From assembly GCF_003018255.1 (NCBI RefSeq), contig NZ_CP027440.1: a stretch of 64,000 nt of DNA. One strand, given 5' to 3'. Origin of the DNA: Escherichia coli. GTDB lineage: Bacteria; Pseudomonadota; Gammaproteobacteria; Enterobacterales; Enterobacteriaceae. A program made the position numbers. Every line of letters starts with the position of its first letter. The stretch's first letter is position 1. Below, in pieces: positions 39,101 through 45,100 of the stretch.

Positions 39101-42100
39101 GTTTATTCACTCTATACGCCATCAGAGCAGTTTTATCCGCCTGGCGCACCAATCCCGTGGCCATCAGATACCGTTCCGTCTGGCTATGCCCTGATGCAGG
39201 GGCAGACTTTTGACAAATCTGCATACCCGAAACTTGCAGCCGCTTATCCGTCAGGCGTGATCCCTGATATGCGTGGCTGGACGATTAAGGGCAAACCTGC
39301 CAGTGGTCGGGCCGTATTGTCTCAGGAACAGGACGGCATTAAATCGCACACCCACAGCGCCAGCGCATCCAGTACGGAATTGGGGACGAAAACCACATCG
39401 TCGTTTGATTACGGCACTAAATCCACGAATAACACCGGGGCGCACACGCACAGTGTGAGCGGTACAGCCGCAAGTGCCGGAAACCATACTCATAGTGTCA
39501 CAGGCGCATCAGCAGTCAGCCAGTGGTCACAAAATGGGTCAGTACATAAGGTAGTGTCTGCGGCCAGTGTGAATACAAGTGCTGCAGGAGCGCACACTCA
39601 TAGTGTCAGCGGCACAGCTGCATCTGCAGGTGCTCACGCACATACTGTCGGTATTGGTGCTCATACGCACTCTGTTGCGATTGGCTCACATGGACACACC
39701 ATCACCGTTAACGCTGCTGGTAACGCGGAAAACACCGTCAAAAACATCGCATTTAACTACATTGTGAGGCTTGCATAATGGCATTCAGAATGAGTGAACA
39801 ACCACGGACCATAAAAATTTATAATCTGCTGGCCGGAACTAATGAATTTATTGGTGAAGGTGACGCATATATTCCGCCTCATACAGGTCTGCCAGCAAAC
39901 AGTACCTATATTGCACCGCCAGATATTCCGGCTGGCTTCGTGGCTGTTTTCAACAGTGATGAGGCATCGTGGCATCTCGTTGAAGATCATCGGGGTAAAA
40001 CGGTTTATGACGTGGCTTCCGGCGACGCGTTATTTATTTCTGAACTCGGCTCATTACCGGAAAATGTCACCTGGTTATCCCCGGAAGGGGAGTTTCAGAA
40101 GTGGAACGGCACAGCCTGGGTGAAAGATGCAGAAGCAGAAAAACTATTCCGGATCCGGGAGGCGGAAGAAACAAAAAACAGCCTGATGCAGGCAGCGAAT
40201 GAGCATATTGCGCCACTTCAGGATGCTGTGGATCTGGAGATCGCAACGGAAGAAGAGGCGTCGTTGCTGGCAGCATGGAAGAAGTATCGGGTGTTGCTGA
40301 ACCGTGTTGATACATCAGTAGCACCGGATATTGAGTGGCCTGCTGTCCCTGTTATGGAGTAATCGTTTTGAGATACGCCGCATACACGTTGTATGCAATA
40401 ACGTGCTGCGGCTTGGTAAATTTTAGCTAGTTTCAGCAGGAGACATAAAAAACTTCAATATAAGATTAAGCATCACGTATTGCCAATCTGATTTTTGACT
40501 GATACCAATTGGGGCCTTCTGCAATTATTTCTTCCTCAACATGCATGATGGGATGCATTTCAATTTCAGAGTTTTTGACTTTTAGATCTAGTCCATATTT
40601 TTTTGAAATTTGTAAAACTTCATTTTTGAAATCCTTATCTGCGAAAGGTGAAATCCTTATTTCTTCCAACAGATTGTTAAGAGATACAGGGACTAGTTTT
40701 CCCTTTACAGGTGGAGTGTTAAAGGTATTCTCTTGAAAAATAGCTCTAAACTCTTTTTCGTATTCGAAAGATGGTCTCTTGTTAAAGAATACATCTGATT
40801 CTGGATTGTATTGTTTTATCCAGAAATTTTTGACGTATTTTACGTGTTTTAATTGTAGTTTGTTTAAATTATTATTTTCAAGTTGGCTTTGGAGGTTTTT
40901 TTTCTTTGATTTTATGACAACGCCTTTAGCGGGGTTTTTACAATACAGCTTCCACATAGCTTCAGATTCATGTTCGTTACAATGCCAGCAACTTATATAT
41001 GTCCTCTCGCTTATTTCCTTAAGTGTCTTTAAATTGAATGCCATGAAAGGATCTAAGTCCATGCCGGCACCATGAGTAGCGCATAGTTTTTCCTGTGTCT
41101 CAATGAATTTTTTATAGCCAGTATGTCCCCAAGCAAATTCACCTTCGAATGGATCTTCAAAATTTTTTGCTGAGCAAAAAAATAAAGCATTTTGTTCGAG
41201 TAACATAGAGAATTTCTCTATGTCAAGGTATCGCCATATATACTCAGTGTGCATGATAGCTCCTTGCAATATAACTATTTCTATCTGTTCATTTGTACTT
41301 AAAAAGGATTGAGTAGCCTGAACAGTTCTATCCGTAAATATACCAGATAGAAGAGTTGTACAATAACAAATCCTCCGTATAAGAACCAGCCATAATAGTC
41401 TGGTTCTTAAGGTTTTTTTTTGTTCGAGGGGGGGGGGCTACGATTCGTCCCCATATCGGCGATAAATTAGGCTTGTACCAACGCTTCTGTTTCTGTGAGT
41501 GAAATCTGATAGCGTTTTACTGCCTCAGCAAAGGCGTGCGCGGCATCTGCATTTGATACCATATATTCTTCAGTTACCCCTGTTTGAGAATGGAAAGTAA
41601 TATTTCCATAAATGCAAATAGGGATTTGGTAGTTGTCTTTAAAACGACGGTCTGGTGAGCCATTCTTATTCGTTTTCGCCCATGTATAACCATCTATGCG
41701 TGAGTCACTGGGAACACCTTCTTCCTCATGGAATCTTAGATATTCTGAACTAATTTGTAATTCGCGTAAATCAATCAGAGCGAATGCTCCATCAGCTCGT
41801 GGTATGACTGCAACTCCAGGATAAAGCAAAATATCGTCTCCATTTACATTTTCAAACCTCATCGCACGCCCTGTAAATTGAATGAGATCCGTTGAACTAA
41901 AATCAAAGGTAACTGGGTGACGATTAACAGACCGGGTTGCTAATGTTCTTTCAGCAAACTGGTCTGTAGCTTTATCTGCAGTAATATCCCATTTTTTGAC
42001 ACTCGATTTTAACATATCAAATGCATGGACCATCGCTGCATATGCGCGCTGTGAAGCATCACTGCTCTCGAATGTTATGGCTATTTTTGTGCTGTCTTCC

Positions 42101-45100
42101 CATGAAACTAGGCGAGATATCTCAGCTTGGGTTAGGGGGAGTAGTGTCTCAAGTTCTGCGATGCGTCGTTTGTAAAACCAACGGAATAGACTTGATTTGC
42201 GTCGAGCCAGCTCGCTTTTTTGTTTTGATTCTTCGGCAAGAGCCTCTTGAAGATCTGCTTTTATCTCTGCTCTTTGTTCTCGTGCTTTAGCAATCAAATC
42301 TCGTAAAGGTAAAAGGGAGGTACTTGTAAGGACTTCTACCGAAGCGCTGGATATTTCATTCATGCCAGCTACAGGCATATATATTTTAGCGTTCGATGGT
42401 GTGTTTTCTGGAGATGACCCAGACTCCAAATGAGGTTCTGTAGGGGCTGGATTTAATGGATTGGTAACTGAGTATCCATCATCATAGGGCAAGGTAGGTG
42501 TAGTATAAGATAAGCCTGTGCCCGGTAATCCGACAGTTGCTCTAACCCCTTTTTTACCAACATTGACAGTTGCGCCAGGCACGCCAATGCTTGCACTTAT
42601 TCCACGCTTGCCAATGTTGAGTCGAACGCCAGGAAATAGAGTAAAGGTTTGTCTGAAACGAAGAGACATAAAGTTATACCTATGTAGTTTTGTACACCAA
42701 AGTTCGAAATGTTTTTATATGAATATTGAGCTGATTCATAAGATTATTCCTAGCTCATCTTCATTCCGCCATGATACAACGGTTTGCTTGCAGGTGAAGA
42801 AAAACGTAAAAGCCCAATAATGATTGGTGGGCTGGTGGAGTTGAAACCGCAGGCTCGTCGTCTGCAAGAAAGTGCTGCGGCTGGCTGGTCAGCTTCTGAT
42901 AGTGAGAATATTGAATGATTTCAAGCTGTTATCGATTTTGCGTATTTTTTGTATGGGAGGATTTGTGCCTCCTCCCATCGGTCCTCCATGACTTTACGCC
43001 ACTGTCTCTAGGGCTGCTATGTGCCAGAAGCTGACATGGCTAGTCCCTAGGCACATTGACCAGCAGGTCATCCATCCCTTAACATATCGTTATGAAATTT
43101 AAAGGATCGATGTTATGGCTTATGAATTAACTTACAGACCCCTCGAATACGGATCGAATGAAAATTATCTTCGCAGAAGTTTGAAAGACCCTTCATTACT
43201 AATTCCTGAAAAAGAGATAGGATGTTTTCTAGTTCTCCAATCCTCATATGCACTACATGAAACTATTGGACTTTCAGCCCAAAACCTAGATATTTCATGG
43301 CAGTCTAACCAAAATTACTTATCGTCAAATTGTGATGGTGAGGCCCCTCTAGCTTGTTATCCTATTTATTTGATTACAGTTGGAGATGATGAAAATGAAA
43401 GGCTTGTTTACATCGGCAAGACATCATCGAAGAGCTCACGATTTTCTTCAGGCCATAGCGCAATTACTAAGTTACACCATCCTAAATATGACAATTTGTC
43501 AAAGCGTATATATTTGTGCTGCGTTGTTTTTTTAAAAAACAGCCAAACCATCCCAATAGAATGGATTAAGCCTTTTGATTTCGCTGAGAAACTATTGAGT
43601 GAATTTGAAGCGAACTTGATTTATTGGAATAAACCAGAGTTGAATACGCAACATATGAAGAAAGAACCTACATTTGAATATGGGCAAGTTCATGCACAAA
43701 ATGTAACTGGCGCAACGTATTTTTGGCATGATAAATTCATTTAGAACTATATAAACAAAACTTGAGTTAATTCTCTATTTTCCGCACTTTTTTTCCAATG
43801 AGTTCTACATATTGGTCAAGATTGTGCTCAAGGGCGCAATAAACTTAGTATTGCGTCTGTAATTCGCTCAGACTGTGTGAAAACGGTTTAAGCTTCAGAG
43901 GTGAATGCAAAAGAGGCTGACGCCTGCGCTTTTAAGTAAAATCTGCATCATCTTTCTATGTAAATTTTCTAAGAAGTCATCTAAACGCGTGACCTTCTGT
44001 CAGCAATCAGAGTTTTCATACAGCCTGCGTTCGAAGCTGCCCTTGGGCCCGCCTATGGCAGTTGAGTGCCAGAAGCGGACATTTTAACTAATATTCAGCA
44101 TGTTTATCATTATGTCACACGCAAAATGATAAATTAATATATTCAGAGGATTTTTTAACTCAAAAATGGCGTTGTAATTCAATGAACCATGCCTATAATC
44201 TAACATAAAAATAATATATCATTGAAAGGATAAGGCTTTGAATATTTACATTGATGAGTCGATACACGAGGAGTTTGGGTTTATGATCTTGGCTTATGTA
44301 GTTTGTAATCAGGATCCTCAGTCTGATATATACAAGATTCTTTCAGAACATTCAGTTGATGAACATCACTCATGCGCAAGAATGGATAAATCTGAATCTT
44401 TAAGAAATTTGAGGAGTAATCTTATTTCCTACTTAAACGCAAATTGTCGATGGGGGGCATTTATTATGCCAAGTGAGTATCGCCATCGTTCTTATGAGGA
44501 TGTGTCTTTTTTATTAAGCTTATTGATTAAGAATTTTCCAGACAGGAAAGGGAATATTTTTTTCGATGAAGGTATCATAAACCCTACAGAAGCTCTCAGT
44601 CTATGCTCTGATGAAGTCAAAGTTATAACATGCTCATCCCATGAAGTTTGTGGGATACAACTTGCTGATCTAGTAGCATCTTTTAGTGGTGTTAGGTTGA
44701 GAGAAACAATAACAGGAAAAGCAAAAATTTTAACTTACGGTTACGACTTCGGCTATGAGCCCCCAATAGAATCCCCGCTTGGATTTGAGCTTTTTGCTAC
44801 ACTTCGACAATCTATGCTCAGGGGAAATGAACCTCTTGGGAATGAGATGCCTGAATTTGCCACATTTAAAACTATTAATAAAGGATTGGTTTTGTCGAAA
44901 AACTTAACAACTGAATTTAGTCAGTTGGCATTAAAAACCTTTGGGGAAGTGTACTTAGGTTGCATCCATTAAATGTAATATTACTATTTATCAATTACTA
45001 GCAAAATTAAGCTAGGTGTTCCTAAGAATATAGGTGACGATGATACAACTGACTTCCGCTTTTCGCTCATAACAGACATTCACTACAGTTATGGTAGAAG

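What the first reader, a model, noticed from the sequence alone, without database searches (positions are those of the whole stretch)
41467..42669. 400-aa protein with N-terminal triple Gly/Lys repeat and unknown C-terminal domain
The N-terminus contains three tandem copies of a GxRxNxGKKGxxxSIGxPG-like motif (RLNIGKRGISASIGVPG, TVNVGKKGVRATVGLPG), which I associate with DUF4236. A Pro/Ser/Thr-rich linker follows, then a ~280-aa region with no motif I recognise. Domain architecture and location suggest a sensor-effector type moron.
Basis: inference. Interest (0 to 1): 0.6.

Follow-up and report, generated by a model that had tools for sequence, protein, structure and literature searches.

The report
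Unstudied membrane-linked prophage accessory protein
This is a real, intact prophage accessory gene for a protein of unknown function whose relatives sit in anti-phage defence islands, often beside a helicase-nuclease, so it is a credible but untested candidate for a new phage-defence component.

Summary
The ORF is real: window 41467-42669 on the minus strand, 400 aa. Pfam confirms DUF4236 at residues 3-56 (E 5.6e-21). The repeat is two clear 18-residue beta-hairpin units plus a degenerate third. A variable Pro/Ser/Thr linker follows. The remaining ~290 aa match nothing in Pfam, NCBIfam, PADLOC or PDB, yet they form a large conserved family (2,905 clusters at 50% identity).

AlphaFold (pLDDT 89.7) gives a 75-residue helical hairpin with a hydrophobic/basic tip, then an alpha/beta domain with only weak PH-like similarity.

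The gene lies in a low-GC accessory island between the tail-fibre assembly gene and attR (icd) of a lambdoid E. coli prophage, antisense to the tail-fibre genes beside it.

Many relatives add a transmembrane helix plus a periplasmic SH3b or peptidoglycan-binding domain. Small DUF4236-only proteins are mostly tail-anchored. In 11 of 76 loci from at least five lineages, an Hhe-type helicase-nuclease lies adjacent on the same strand. Other loci sit beside Zorya or Hachiman.

Best reading (about 0.35): a membrane-proximal anti-phage protein. The mechanism is inferred and nothing has been tested experimentally.

The parts
41467..42669 (-). Complete CDS, 400 aa plus stop (stop codon 41467-41469). 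RefSeq annotates it 'DUF4236 domain-containing protein' (WP_039022691.1).
   Evidence: ORF list. 100% DNA identity to annotated E. coli chromosomes. Full-length match to PHROG 17982, E 3.4e-194.
42502..42663 (-). DUF4236 domain, residues 3-56. It is a cationic beta-hairpin repeat with two full 18-residue units plus a degenerate third. In this protein it carries 8 K/R and no D/E.
   Evidence: Pfam PF14020, E 5.6e-21. Five strands with block pLDDT 84-88 over residues 11-60. Family median net charge +8, mean D+E 0.17.
42361..42501 (-). Variable Pro/Ser/Thr-rich linker, residues ~57-103.
   Evidence: Poorly conserved and indel-rich among 65-93%-identical homologues. Block pLDDT 52-72.
42091..42360 (-). 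Start of the conserved core, residues 104-193. It comprises the conserved segment E-I-x-S-A-x-x-x-x-L-T-S (105-116) and an antiparallel helical hairpin (helices 117-159 and 163-193).
   Evidence: AlphaFold secondary structure, pLDDT 92-98. Column conservation: S108 97%, T115 88%, L119 89%.
42160..42195 (-). Hairpin tip, residues 159-170 (SSLFRWFYKRRI). This is a conserved hydrophobic/aromatic plus basic patch with no acidic residues, proposed as a membrane-interface or partner-docking site.
   Evidence: Across 143 family members the 12 positions average 6.1 hydrophobic, 3.25 basic and 0.06 acidic residues. The rest of the hairpin is 17.7% acidic.
41470..42090 (-). C-terminal alpha/beta module, residues 194-400. 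A beta-alpha-beta-beta subdomain (196-258) is followed by a beta-sandwich capped by a C-terminal helix (269-399). It holds the family's invariant residues W227, D228, R241, N274, G277, W330, N334, G337, D340, R342, F343, N346, G364, E367 and S372.
42771..42798 (-). Sigma-70-like promoter candidate (TTCACC, 16-nt spacer, TATCAT) about 100 nt upstream of the ATG. An AGG lies 10-12 nt before the start codon.
   Evidence: Consensus scan, 9 of 12 matches; upstream sequence read. This is a consensus match only and is not evidence of function.
41381..41420 (+). Hairpin (9-bp stem AAGAACCAG/CTGGTTCTT, 10-nt loop) followed on the plus strand by AAGG and T8, in the 197-nt gap between this gene and the DUF2971 gene. 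It reads as an intrinsic terminator for plus-strand transcripts, and it separates the two minus-strand genes.
   Evidence: Read directly from the sequence. The scan did not flag it because the T-run starts 4 nt after the stem.

Best explanation
The gene encodes a cytoplasmic, membrane-proximal accessory protein carried as a moron by lambdoid prophages. It most likely contributes to protecting the lysogen from other phages.

Shown:
- It is an intact, strongly conserved, horizontally mobile gene transcribed antisense to the adjacent tail-fibre genes.
- It has three parts: a cationic beta-hairpin DUF4236 domain, a flexible linker, and a ~290-aa unannotated core.
- The core is a long helical hairpin with a hydrophobic/basic tip plus an alpha/beta domain.
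- In many relatives the same core is followed by a transmembrane helix and a periplasmic SH3b or peptidoglycan-binding domain.
- Small DUF4236-only proteins are mostly tail-anchored in the membrane.
- Family members have no universal partner gene.
- They recur inside defence islands, and in about 14% of sampled loci they sit directly next to, and co-directional with, an Hhe-type SF1 helicase fused to a restriction-endonuclease-like domain.

Inferred:
- DUF4236 and the hairpin tip dock the protein on the anionic inner leaflet.
- The invariant polar cluster of the C-terminal domain binds a ligand or partner.
- The family acts as an envelope-proximal sensor or scaffold that detects phage genome entry or licenses DNA-targeting effectors there. 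This would be conceptually like ZorAB signalling to ZorC/ZorD in Zorya.
- In the solo E. coli form it would either use a host factor or act directly as an exclusion protein.
For: Real gene and architecture.

Moron status:
- The island is low in GC.
- The gene lies between tfa and the icd' attR remnant.
- It holds the same slot after the tail fibres in E. coli prophages at three further chromosomal sites and in Klebsiella prophages at smpB/ssrA.
- It is present in 121 of 5,426 complete E. coli genomes, always chromosomal.

Patchy, broad distribution: 266 species-level hits among 100,044 genomes, across at least seven phyla.

Membrane link:
- 34 of 150 representatives carry SH3_3 and 3-4 carry PG_binding_1.
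- 47 of 69 long forms have a hydrophobic 19-mer after the core.
- 60 of 84 small DUF4236 proteins have a C-terminal transmembrane-like segment.
- DUF4236 has median net charge +8, and the hairpin tip has essentially no acidic residues.

Defence association:
- In the window the neighbour matches PADLOC PDC-S31.
- A complete Zorya I operon lies directly upstream in Labrenzia and Roseibium.
- Hachiman HamB lies at -1 in Arenibacter.
- An Upf1-like helicase with REase_MTES_1575/DUF559/DUF2726 is adjacent and co-directional in 11 of 76 loci. These span Azospirillum, another proteobacterium, Verrucomicrobiota, Uhrbacteria (candidate phyla radiation) and Bacteroidota. The helicases share only 22-40% identity between lineages.
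- In Azospirillum only the helicase-plus-target pair is shared between loci whose flanks differ.
Against: - There are no experimental data of any kind.
- The E. coli protein has no predicted transmembrane segment (best 19-mer hydropathy 1.34) and no recognisable effector domain.
- It matches no PADLOC model.
- 'DUF4236' does not occur in the held supplementary tables of a 2026 machine-learning survey of E. coli defence genes, whereas DUF2971 does. Several of those files are truncated.
- 65 of 76 loci have no adjacent helicase.
- Of 40 immediate neighbours sampled in 20 diverse loci, only 4 gave any PADLOC hit, two of them strong. Pfam domains of the +-2 neighbours are heterogeneous.
- DUF4236 also occurs in small proteins of virulent phages. 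A full-length homologue sits among packaging genes of a Microcystis phage, so a phage-benefit role is possible.
- Membrane binding by the hairpin tip and DUF4236 is inferred from composition only.
Confidence: 0.35

Rival explanations
1. In E. coli it is one half of a two-gene system with the downstream DUF2971 (AbiGi-like, PADLOC PDC-S31) gene, and has no function alone.
For: - The two genes are co-directional and 197 nt apart.
- They co-occur perfectly in E. coli: 121 genomes have the DUF4236 gene, 121 have the DUF2971 gene, and 121 have the contiguous pair.
- Distal neighbours and prophage integration sites differ among these genomes.
- DUF2971 proteins are listed as predicted novel defence genes.
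Against: - No DUF2971 homologue lies within +-10 kb in any of the 80 non-E. coli family loci, including the 87-93%-identical Enterobacter, Klebsiella, Pectobacterium and Citrobacter orthologues. The 93%-identical Klebsiella/Raoultella orthologue loci show none among their called genes within +-8 kb.
- In strain FORC_042 the DUF2971 gene is disrupted while the DUF4236 gene is intact.
- A hairpin/terminator-like element separates the genes.
- PDC-S31 is, as I read PADLOC's naming, a single-gene candidate. That reading was not checked here.
- The E. coli copies are 95-100% identical at the DNA level, so the linkage may reflect one recent cassette.
Confidence: 0.15
2. It serves the phage rather than the host. 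It could be a regulator of lysis or DNA entry at the inner membrane. Alternatively it could be an anti-defence decoy derived from the partner subunit of Hhe-type helicase-nuclease systems, protecting the phage from such systems.
For: - Small tail-anchored DUF4236 proteins occur in virulent Klebsiella (Stephanstirmvirinae) and Brevundimonas jumbo phages.
- A DUF4236 protein lies between the tail chaperone and tape-measure genes in phiCD146.
- A full-length homologue follows the large terminase gene in Microcystis phages.
- Adjacency to helicase-nucleases would also fit a regulatory or inhibitory subunit.
Against: - In E. coli and Klebsiella the gene is at the prophage end, on the strand opposite the adjacent tail genes, in a low-GC island with other defence candidates. 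That is the classic position of lysogen-expressed morons, not of early anti-defence or lysis genes.
- Most family members are chromosomal, and their sampled flanking genes showed no recurrent phage signature. Prophage status of those loci was not tested.
Confidence: 0.15
3. It is a lysogenic-conversion or housekeeping-type envelope factor unrelated to phage conflict. For example it could be a scaffold linking the cytoplasmic membrane and cell wall that alters envelope physiology.
For: - Long forms have a transmembrane helix plus SH3b or PG_binding_1, which are typical cell-wall-binding modules.
- No enzymatic or toxic domain was found.
- Many loci have ordinary metabolic neighbours.
Against: - The distribution is sparse and patchy (266 of 100,044 species), with clear horizontal transfer: 65-69% identity between Enterobacterales and Rhodobacterales.
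- It is carried by prophages.
- It is repeatedly adjacent to Zorya, Hachiman and Hhe-like genes.
Confidence: 0.15
4. The C-terminal domain is itself a cryptic enzyme or toxin (for example a diverged nuclease), making the protein a self-contained abortive-infection effector.
For: - There are many invariant polar residues: D228, R241, E315, D322, K335, D340, R342, N346, E367, S372.
- One core-only relative in AFDB is named 'DUF4263 domain-containing', DUF4263 being the Shedu nuclease family.
Against: - No member of 150 representatives hits DUF4263 or any nuclease family in Pfam.
- There is no PADLOC hit even at E<=1.
- There is no PDB sequence or fold match to any enzyme.
- Several invariant N-G and D-G positions look like structural beta-turns.
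Confidence: 0.1

Closest known systems
Pfam DUF4236 (PF14020) / PHROG 17982
   Same: The N-terminal 55 residues match the whole DUF4236 model. The entire protein matches PHROG 17982 end to end.
   Different: Both are catalogue entries with no assigned function. Only one paper in the searched library mentions DUF4236 at all. The ~290-aa core that makes up most of the protein is not covered by any Pfam family.
Hhe / PADLOC PDC-S37 / Mokosh MkoA-type SF1 helicase-nuclease defence proteins
   Same: Relatives of the target are encoded immediately beside, and co-directional with, such helicases. The helicases carry AAA_11 and AAA_12 plus a REase_MTES_1575/DUF559/DUF2726 endonuclease-like domain. This occurs in 11 of 76 loci from at least five lineages.
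   Different: The target shares no sequence with these proteins. No ORF in the window approaches the size of these helicases (longest is 973 aa, the tail fibre). From memory, Hhe was described as a single-gene system, so a partner protein would be new.
Zorya type I (ZorAB membrane, peptidoglycan-anchored complex plus ZorC/ZorD nuclease-helicase)
   Same: This is a working analogy only. In long-form relatives, a cytoplasmic coiled-coil module is tethered in the inner membrane with a periplasmic cell-wall-binding domain and is encoded next to a helicase-nuclease. One relative lies directly downstream of a complete zorABCD operon.
   Different: There is no MotA/MotB homology and no ion-channel-like membrane domain. 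The E. coli form has no transmembrane segment or cell-wall-binding domain. The Zorya mechanism is recalled from the literature and was not tested here.
Lambdoid prophage morons and exclusion genes at the tail-gene end (lom, bor, cor, HK97 gp15, P22 SieA)
   Same: It has the same genomic niche (the accessory slot around the tail-fibre genes and attR) and a promoter-like site of its own. Lysogen-side expression is presumed.
   Different: There is no sequence or predicted structural similarity. Those proteins are outer-membrane, lipoprotein or integral inner-membrane proteins, whereas this one is predicted to be soluble or peripheral.
PH-like (pleckstrin homology) beta-sandwich domains
   Same: Residues ~269-399 are a multi-strand beta-sandwich capped by a C-terminal helix. 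The best Foldseek PDB hits are repeatedly PH, PTB or FERM-type domains.

Membership tests
Pfam DUF4236 (PF14020) | Significant full-length match to the family HMM | tested here: met
   E 5.6e-21, score 75.2, model positions 1-55 of 55, residues 3-56.
PHROG 17982 (phage protein family, unknown function) | End-to-end profile match | tested here: met
   E 3.4e-194, residues 1-400 against profile positions 1-390 of 390.
DUF4236-associated core family (defined here) | Conserved ~290-aa core carrying the invariant W227-D228, R241 and N-K-D-G-S-P-D-R-R-F loop (residues 334-343) | tested here: met
   2,905 representative clusters at E<=1e-3. Invariant columns. The loop motif retrieved 266 confirmed loci.
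Any known or candidate anti-phage system in PADLOC-DB v2.0.0 | HMM match to a system component | tested here: not met
   0 families at E<=0.1 for the target. Ten divergent relatives gave only coiled-coil noise at E<=1.
Helicase-nuclease-linked two-gene module (Hhe-type helicase plus DUF4236-core protein) | An adjacent, co-directional Upf1-like SF1 helicase with a C-terminal REase-like domain | tested here: not met
   The window neighbours are tfa, DUF2971, a 209-aa hypothetical and DUF3800. The longest ORF in the 64-kb window is the 973-aa tail fibre. The feature is met only in 11 of 76 relatives.
AbiG-like two-gene system (AbiGi-like DUF2971 plus a partner) | The partner protein is homologous to AbiGii, and the pairing is conserved across taxa | tested here: not met
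   The target has no PADLOC hit; AbiGii being among the PADLOC models is assumed from memory, not checked. A DUF2971 neighbour is absent from all 80 non-E. coli loci.
Integral-membrane superinfection-exclusion proteins (SieA, Imm, HK97 gp15 type) | One or more transmembrane helices | tested here: not met
   The best 19-residue hydropathy window is 1.34, inside a predicted beta-strand region. There is no signal-peptide-like N-terminus (sequence).
Membrane-tethered long form of the family (core plus transmembrane helix plus SH3b or PG_binding_1) | A C-terminal extension with a hydrophobic helix and a cell-wall-binding domain | tested here: not met
   The E. coli protein ends about 10 residues after the core helix. 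The long form is found in 34 (SH3_3) and 3-4 (PG_binding_1) of 150 representatives.
PH-domain superfold | A seven-strand beta-sandwich closed by a C-terminal helix, with significant structural similarity to PH domains | tested here: inconclusive
MORN-like or other beta-hairpin membrane-binding repeats (for DUF4236) | Profile or structural similarity to MORN repeats | not tested
   The resemblance (a G-K-x-G turn in an ~18-residue beta-hairpin unit) is recalled from memory only. Pfam reported no MORN hit at E<=10.

The most novel reading that the evidence does not exclude
The DUF4236-plus-core family is a previously unrecognised, widespread class of envelope-proximal anti-phage proteins. Tethered forms (transmembrane helix plus SH3b or peptidoglycan-binding domain) and peripheral forms would monitor the inner membrane where phage genomes enter. 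In several phyla they would work as the sensor or scaffold partner of Hhe-type helicase-nucleases, forming a Zorya-like 'membrane sensor plus DNA-degrading effector' system built from entirely different parts. The E. coli prophage copy would be a solo version of this module.
Probability: 0.2. Interest if true: 0.75.

Novelty: new variant of a known kind. Interest (0 to 1): 0.5.

Why it matters
If the family is defensive, it would add a common but unannotated component to the bacterial immune repertoire: about 2,900 clusters at 50% identity across at least seven phyla. It would also give a first functional handle on DUF4236, a domain found in many phage and bacterial proteins. It would suggest that some Hhe/PDC-S37-type helicase-nucleases, currently treated as single-gene systems, work with a membrane-associated partner.

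The core domain has a confident predicted structure with no convincing match to any solved structure, so it is also a reasonable structural-biology target.

For E. coli genomics, the finding flags the slot between tfa and attR of lambdoid prophages as a hotspot. In this window that slot stacks at least four candidate accessory or defence genes.

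Tried and rejected
1. Sequence annotation of the core. Pfam, NCBIfam and PADLOC gave nothing beyond DUF4236, even for ten divergent relatives at E<=1.

2. PDB by sequence profile. The full-length narrow alignment, the full-length deep alignment and the core-only alignment returned only coiled-coil noise or chance hits.

3. Fold searches.
- Foldseek against PDB gave only weak PH-like, membrane-fusion-protein or MscS hits.
- Foldseek against AFDB50 returned only family members in the top 50.

4. The first AlphaFold run, with 25 close homologues, was poor (pLDDT 61). It was superseded by the 150-sequence run (pLDDT 89.7).

5. Searching with the 60-residue DUF4236 domain to learn its partner domains returned only short proteins. 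That did not give domain architectures, but it did reveal the tail-anchored mini-proteins.

6. The look-up of encoding contigs on two metagenomic representatives gave contigs too short for context.

7. Pooled Pfam scan of 148 +-2 neighbours gave a heterogeneous list with no recurrent partner.

8. Ideas considered and dropped:
- Shedu/DUF4263 relationship: it rests on one UniProt name only, with no Pfam or PADLOC support.
- SMC/Rad50-like head: there is no Walker motif.
- Gre/DksA-like hairpin: the tip here is basic and hydrophobic, not acidic.
- Tubby-like barrel: there is no fold hit.
- Tai tail-assembly-interference family: the paper (PMC11364771) describes an unrelated family at other hotspots.

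9. A DUF3800 RNA motif upstream of the neighbouring DUF3800 gene was not found.

10. Literature. There are no papers on this protein, its accessions or its PHROG.

Full report
**1. Observation**

The finding's coordinates delimit an ATG-to-stop ORF of 400 codons on the minus strand. The plus-strand reading is full of stops.

Pfam-A finds one significant domain: DUF4236 (PF14020), residues 3-56, covering the whole 55-position model, E 5.6e-21.

The repeat is real but is two and a half units rather than three. PGVRLNIGKRGISASIGV (13-30) and PGATVNVGKKGVRATVGL (31-48) are clear copies. PGTGLSYTT (from 49) is a degenerate remnant. AlphaFold models each unit as a beta-hairpin.

Residues ~57-103 are Pro/Ser/Thr-rich, variable even among close homologues, and low-confidence in the model.

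The remainder has no hit in Pfam, NCBIfam or PADLOC. The whole protein matches PHROG 17982, of unknown function, end to end.

**2. Where it sits**

The window is E. coli chromosome carrying a lambdoid prophage. The 5.2-kb stretch around the gene is 100% identical to several complete genomes.

RefSeq annotation of one of them gives this order:
- gpJ, lom, tail fibre, and tail-fibre assembly protein on the plus strand;
- DUF2971 and the DUF4236 gene on the minus strand;
- a 209-aa hypothetical protein and a DUF3800 protein on the plus strand;
- a 3' fragment of icd, which is the attR scar.

GC content falls from 47-60% in the tail genes to 32-44% across 40.5-45.5 kb. A promoter-like site lies about 100 nt upstream. 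A hairpin/terminator-like element separates the gene from DUF2971. These are the features of a moron.

The gene is in 121 of 5,426 complete E. coli genomes, always chromosomal. Only 30 of them share the whole island. In three other E. coli strains the gene again follows tfa on the opposite strand, in prophages at different chromosomal sites and with different distal neighbours. In the Klebsiella/Raoultella group a 93%-identical orthologue is the last gene of a different prophage next to smpB/ssrA, just after the tail-fibre gene.

**3. The family**

Full-length homologues are 87-93% identical across Enterobacterales and still 65-69% identical in Rhodobacterales. That indicates strong constraint and horizontal transfer.

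The C-terminal 300 residues alone retrieve 2,905 representative clusters at E<=1e-3. A single conserved-loop pattern finds 266 confirmed loci among 100,044 species genomes. These span Proteobacteria, Bacteroidota, Acidobacteriota, Verrucomicrobiota, Chloroflexota, Nitrospirota and the candidate phyla radiation (CPR).

Of 150 representatives, 112 carry DUF4236 at the N-terminus. A further 34 have a C-terminal SH3_3 domain and 3-4 have PG_binding_1. In those long forms the extension after the core is an acidic linker, then a hydrophobic helix, then a Pro/Ala-rich linker, then the cell-wall-binding domain. The core is therefore cytoplasmic and, in these forms, physically tethered to the inner membrane and cell wall.

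DUF4236 on its own shows the same theme. Of 84 small DUF4236 proteins of at least 80 aa, 60 end in a transmembrane-like segment. Phage-encoded examples are tail-anchored or carry TM2-like helices.

**4. Structure**

With 25 close homologues AlphaFold was unconvincing (pLDDT 61). With 150 diverse sequences it gave pLDDT 89.7 and pTM 0.85. The model has these parts:
- a five-strand beta-meander (DUF4236);
- a disordered linker;
- a conserved segment at residues 105-116;
- an antiparallel helical hairpin (117-159 and 163-193);
- an alpha/beta module (196-399) that ends in a beta-sandwich capped by a long helix.

Two compositional features are conserved family-wide:
- DUF4236 has a median net charge of +8 with essentially no acidic residues.
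- The 12 residues at the hairpin tip (159-170, SSLFRWFYKRRI here) average 6.1 hydrophobic, 3.25 basic and 0.06 acidic residues. The rest of the hairpin is about 18% acidic.

I read both as surfaces for the anionic inner leaflet or for a partner. This is inference from composition only.

**5. Gene neighbourhoods**

I clustered ORFs from 80 loci. No partner gene is universal, and a pooled Pfam scan of +-2 neighbours is heterogeneous.

Defence genes nevertheless recur next to the gene:
- PDC-S31 (DUF2971) in the window.
- A complete zorABCD operon directly upstream, and an SMC-like gene downstream, in Labrenzia and Roseibium.
- HamB at -1 in Arenibacter.
- A SIR2-like gene at -2 and a PDC-S37/Hhe-like helicase at -1 in a verrucomicrobium.

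The most specific pattern concerns an Upf1-like SF1 helicase. It carries AAA_11 and AAA_12 plus a REase_MTES_1575/DUF559/DUF2726 endonuclease-like domain. It lies adjacent and co-directional in 11 of 76 loci from at least five lineages, and the helicases are only 22-40% identical between lineages. Among Azospirillum-type loci only the helicase-plus-target pair is shared while the flanks differ, and the gap between the two genes is about 10 nt. That is hard to explain by chance or by vertical synteny. It suggests a functional link in those lineages.

This survey is a lower bound and not a formal enrichment test. Of 40 immediate neighbours sampled in 20 diverse loci, four gave a PADLOC hit, two of them strong.

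**6. The DUF2971 question**

In E. coli the DUF2971 and DUF4236 genes co-occur perfectly: 121, 121 and 121 genomes for each gene and for the pair. Several observations argue against an obligate pair:
- No DUF2971 homologue is present within 10 kb in any of the 80 non-E. coli family loci, including the 87-93%-identical enterobacterial orthologues. The Klebsiella/Raoultella orthologue loci show none among their called genes within 8 kb.
- In strain FORC_042 the DUF2971 gene is disrupted while the DUF4236 gene is intact.
- The E. coli cassettes are 95-100% identical at the DNA level.

I therefore treat the linkage as a recently spread cassette of two independent genes, and keep the two-gene reading as a rival.

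**7. Interpretation**

Shown:
- It is a real, conserved, mobile, stand-alone gene in a prophage accessory hotspot.
- It has a three-part architecture.
- Many relatives are tethered to the membrane and cell wall.
- Relatives are repeatedly adjacent to defence systems, especially Hhe-type helicase-nucleases.

Inferred:
- Membrane docking through DUF4236 and the hairpin tip.
- Ligand or partner binding by the invariant polar cluster.
- A role as an envelope-proximal sensor, scaffold or exclusion factor.

Against:
- There is no experiment.
- The E. coli form has no transmembrane segment or effector domain.
- It has no match in PADLOC.
- It is absent from the held (partly truncated) supplementary tables of a 2026 machine-learning survey of E. 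coli defence genes, which does list DUF2971.
- DUF4236 and the full family also occur inside phage genomes in positions that could serve the phage.

I put about 0.35 on the anti-phage, membrane-proximal reading. The remainder is spread over four alternatives: a two-gene system with DUF2971, a phage-benefit or anti-defence role, an envelope factor unrelated to phage conflict, and a cryptic enzyme.

**8. Novelty and score**

The protein is catalogued (Pfam DUF, PHROG, RefSeq name) but uncharacterised. The searchable literature is silent on it.

Three results here appear to be new observations: the ~290-aa core as a large unannotated family with a confident predicted fold that has no clear solved-structure match, its membrane and cell-wall tethering in many relatives, and its recurrent pairing with Hhe-type helicase-nucleases.

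Because function is unproven and the E. coli copy lacks the most suggestive features (transmembrane helix, SH3b, helicase partner), I score interest at 0.5. I classify it as a new variant of a known kind: a prophage or defence-island accessory gene.

Noticed in passing
window 40466-41269 (-): The DUF2971 protein (267 aa) just downstream of the target matches PADLOC candidate PDC-S31 (E 1.3e-20) and PHROG 34615. In E. coli it is strictly linked to the DUF4236 gene (121 of 121 genomes). It is absent next to orthologues in other genera. DUF2971 proteins appear as 'predicted novel defense genes' in the DefensePredictor supplement.
   Followed up: partly
window 43115-43744 (+): A 209-aa hypothetical protein is transcribed divergently from the target. 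Its C-terminal 135 aa match PHROG 16890 (E 8.7e-27), with a weak hit to an 'endonuclease' PHROG (phrog_1111, E 0.004). There is no PADLOC or NCBIfam hit. It is a possible small nuclease-like accessory gene.
   Followed up: no
window 44238-44972 (+): A DUF3800 protein (244 aa) has a weak N-terminal PADLOC PDC-M04A hit (E 6.5e-5). From the cited papers, DUF3800 is associated with some retron and CRISPR loci. The ~490-nt upstream spacer gave no DUF3800 RNA-motif hit in Rfam at E<=1.
   Followed up: partly
window 45453-45605 (+): A 50-aa ORF encodes the C-terminal end of isocitrate dehydrogenase. RefSeq annotates it as a partial icd. This marks the prophage attR at the icd integration site, followed by iraM, bluR and bluF.
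   Followed up: partly
window 40121-40319 (+): There is a strong Rfam match to IS009 (RF02111): 203 bits against a gathering score of 117, E 3.4e-50. It lies inside the 3' part of the tail-fibre assembly gene.
   Followed up: no
window 41381-41420: A 9-bp-stem hairpin is flanked by A8 on the minus strand (T8 on the plus strand), between the DUF4236 and DUF2971 genes. It reads as a plus-strand intrinsic terminator that could stop late tail-operon read-through before it runs antisense into the DUF4236 gene.
   Followed up: no
L030 4996-9990 (also L031, L036, L038, L042); L088 4470-9887; L058 51-4025; L045 2233-5808; L075 and L087 7355-9922; L086 11380-15762: Large Upf1-like SF1 helicases with a C-terminal REase_MTES_1575/DUF559/DUF2726 domain (PADLOC PDC-S37/Hhe/MkoA-like) lie adjacent and co-directional to the family gene in at least five lineages. 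In Azospirillum only this pair is conserved between loci whose flanks differ.
   Followed up: partly
L023 1701-9592 and 11290-15962 (Labrenzia sp. THAF82): A complete Zorya type I operon (ZorA, ZorB, ZorC, ZorD; E 6e-121 to 3e-291) lies directly upstream of the family gene. A 412-aa protein plus a 1,145-aa SMC/LmuB-like protein lie directly downstream. Together they form a compact defence island.
   Followed up: partly
L096 4067-5140 (Microcystis phage Mea-Yong924-1): A full-length homologue of the target (32% identity over 98% of the query by tblastn; the annotated CDS begins 22 codons downstream of the match) is encoded right after the large terminase gene, co-directional with the packaging genes. 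This is an unusual place for a defence-type moron.
   Followed up: no
P0183, P0190, P0252, P0260 (C-terminal extensions): A subset of long family members shares a different, helical C-terminal extension. It contains a conserved 'GxPGxxGDPxxI' motif followed by aromatic-rich helices, in place of the transmembrane helix plus SH3b. No Pfam family for it surfaced in the pooled member scan. Other members carry zinc-ribbon or HIRAN extensions, and one AFDB relative is fused to a Vps4/SpoVK-type AAA+ ATPase.
   Followed up: no
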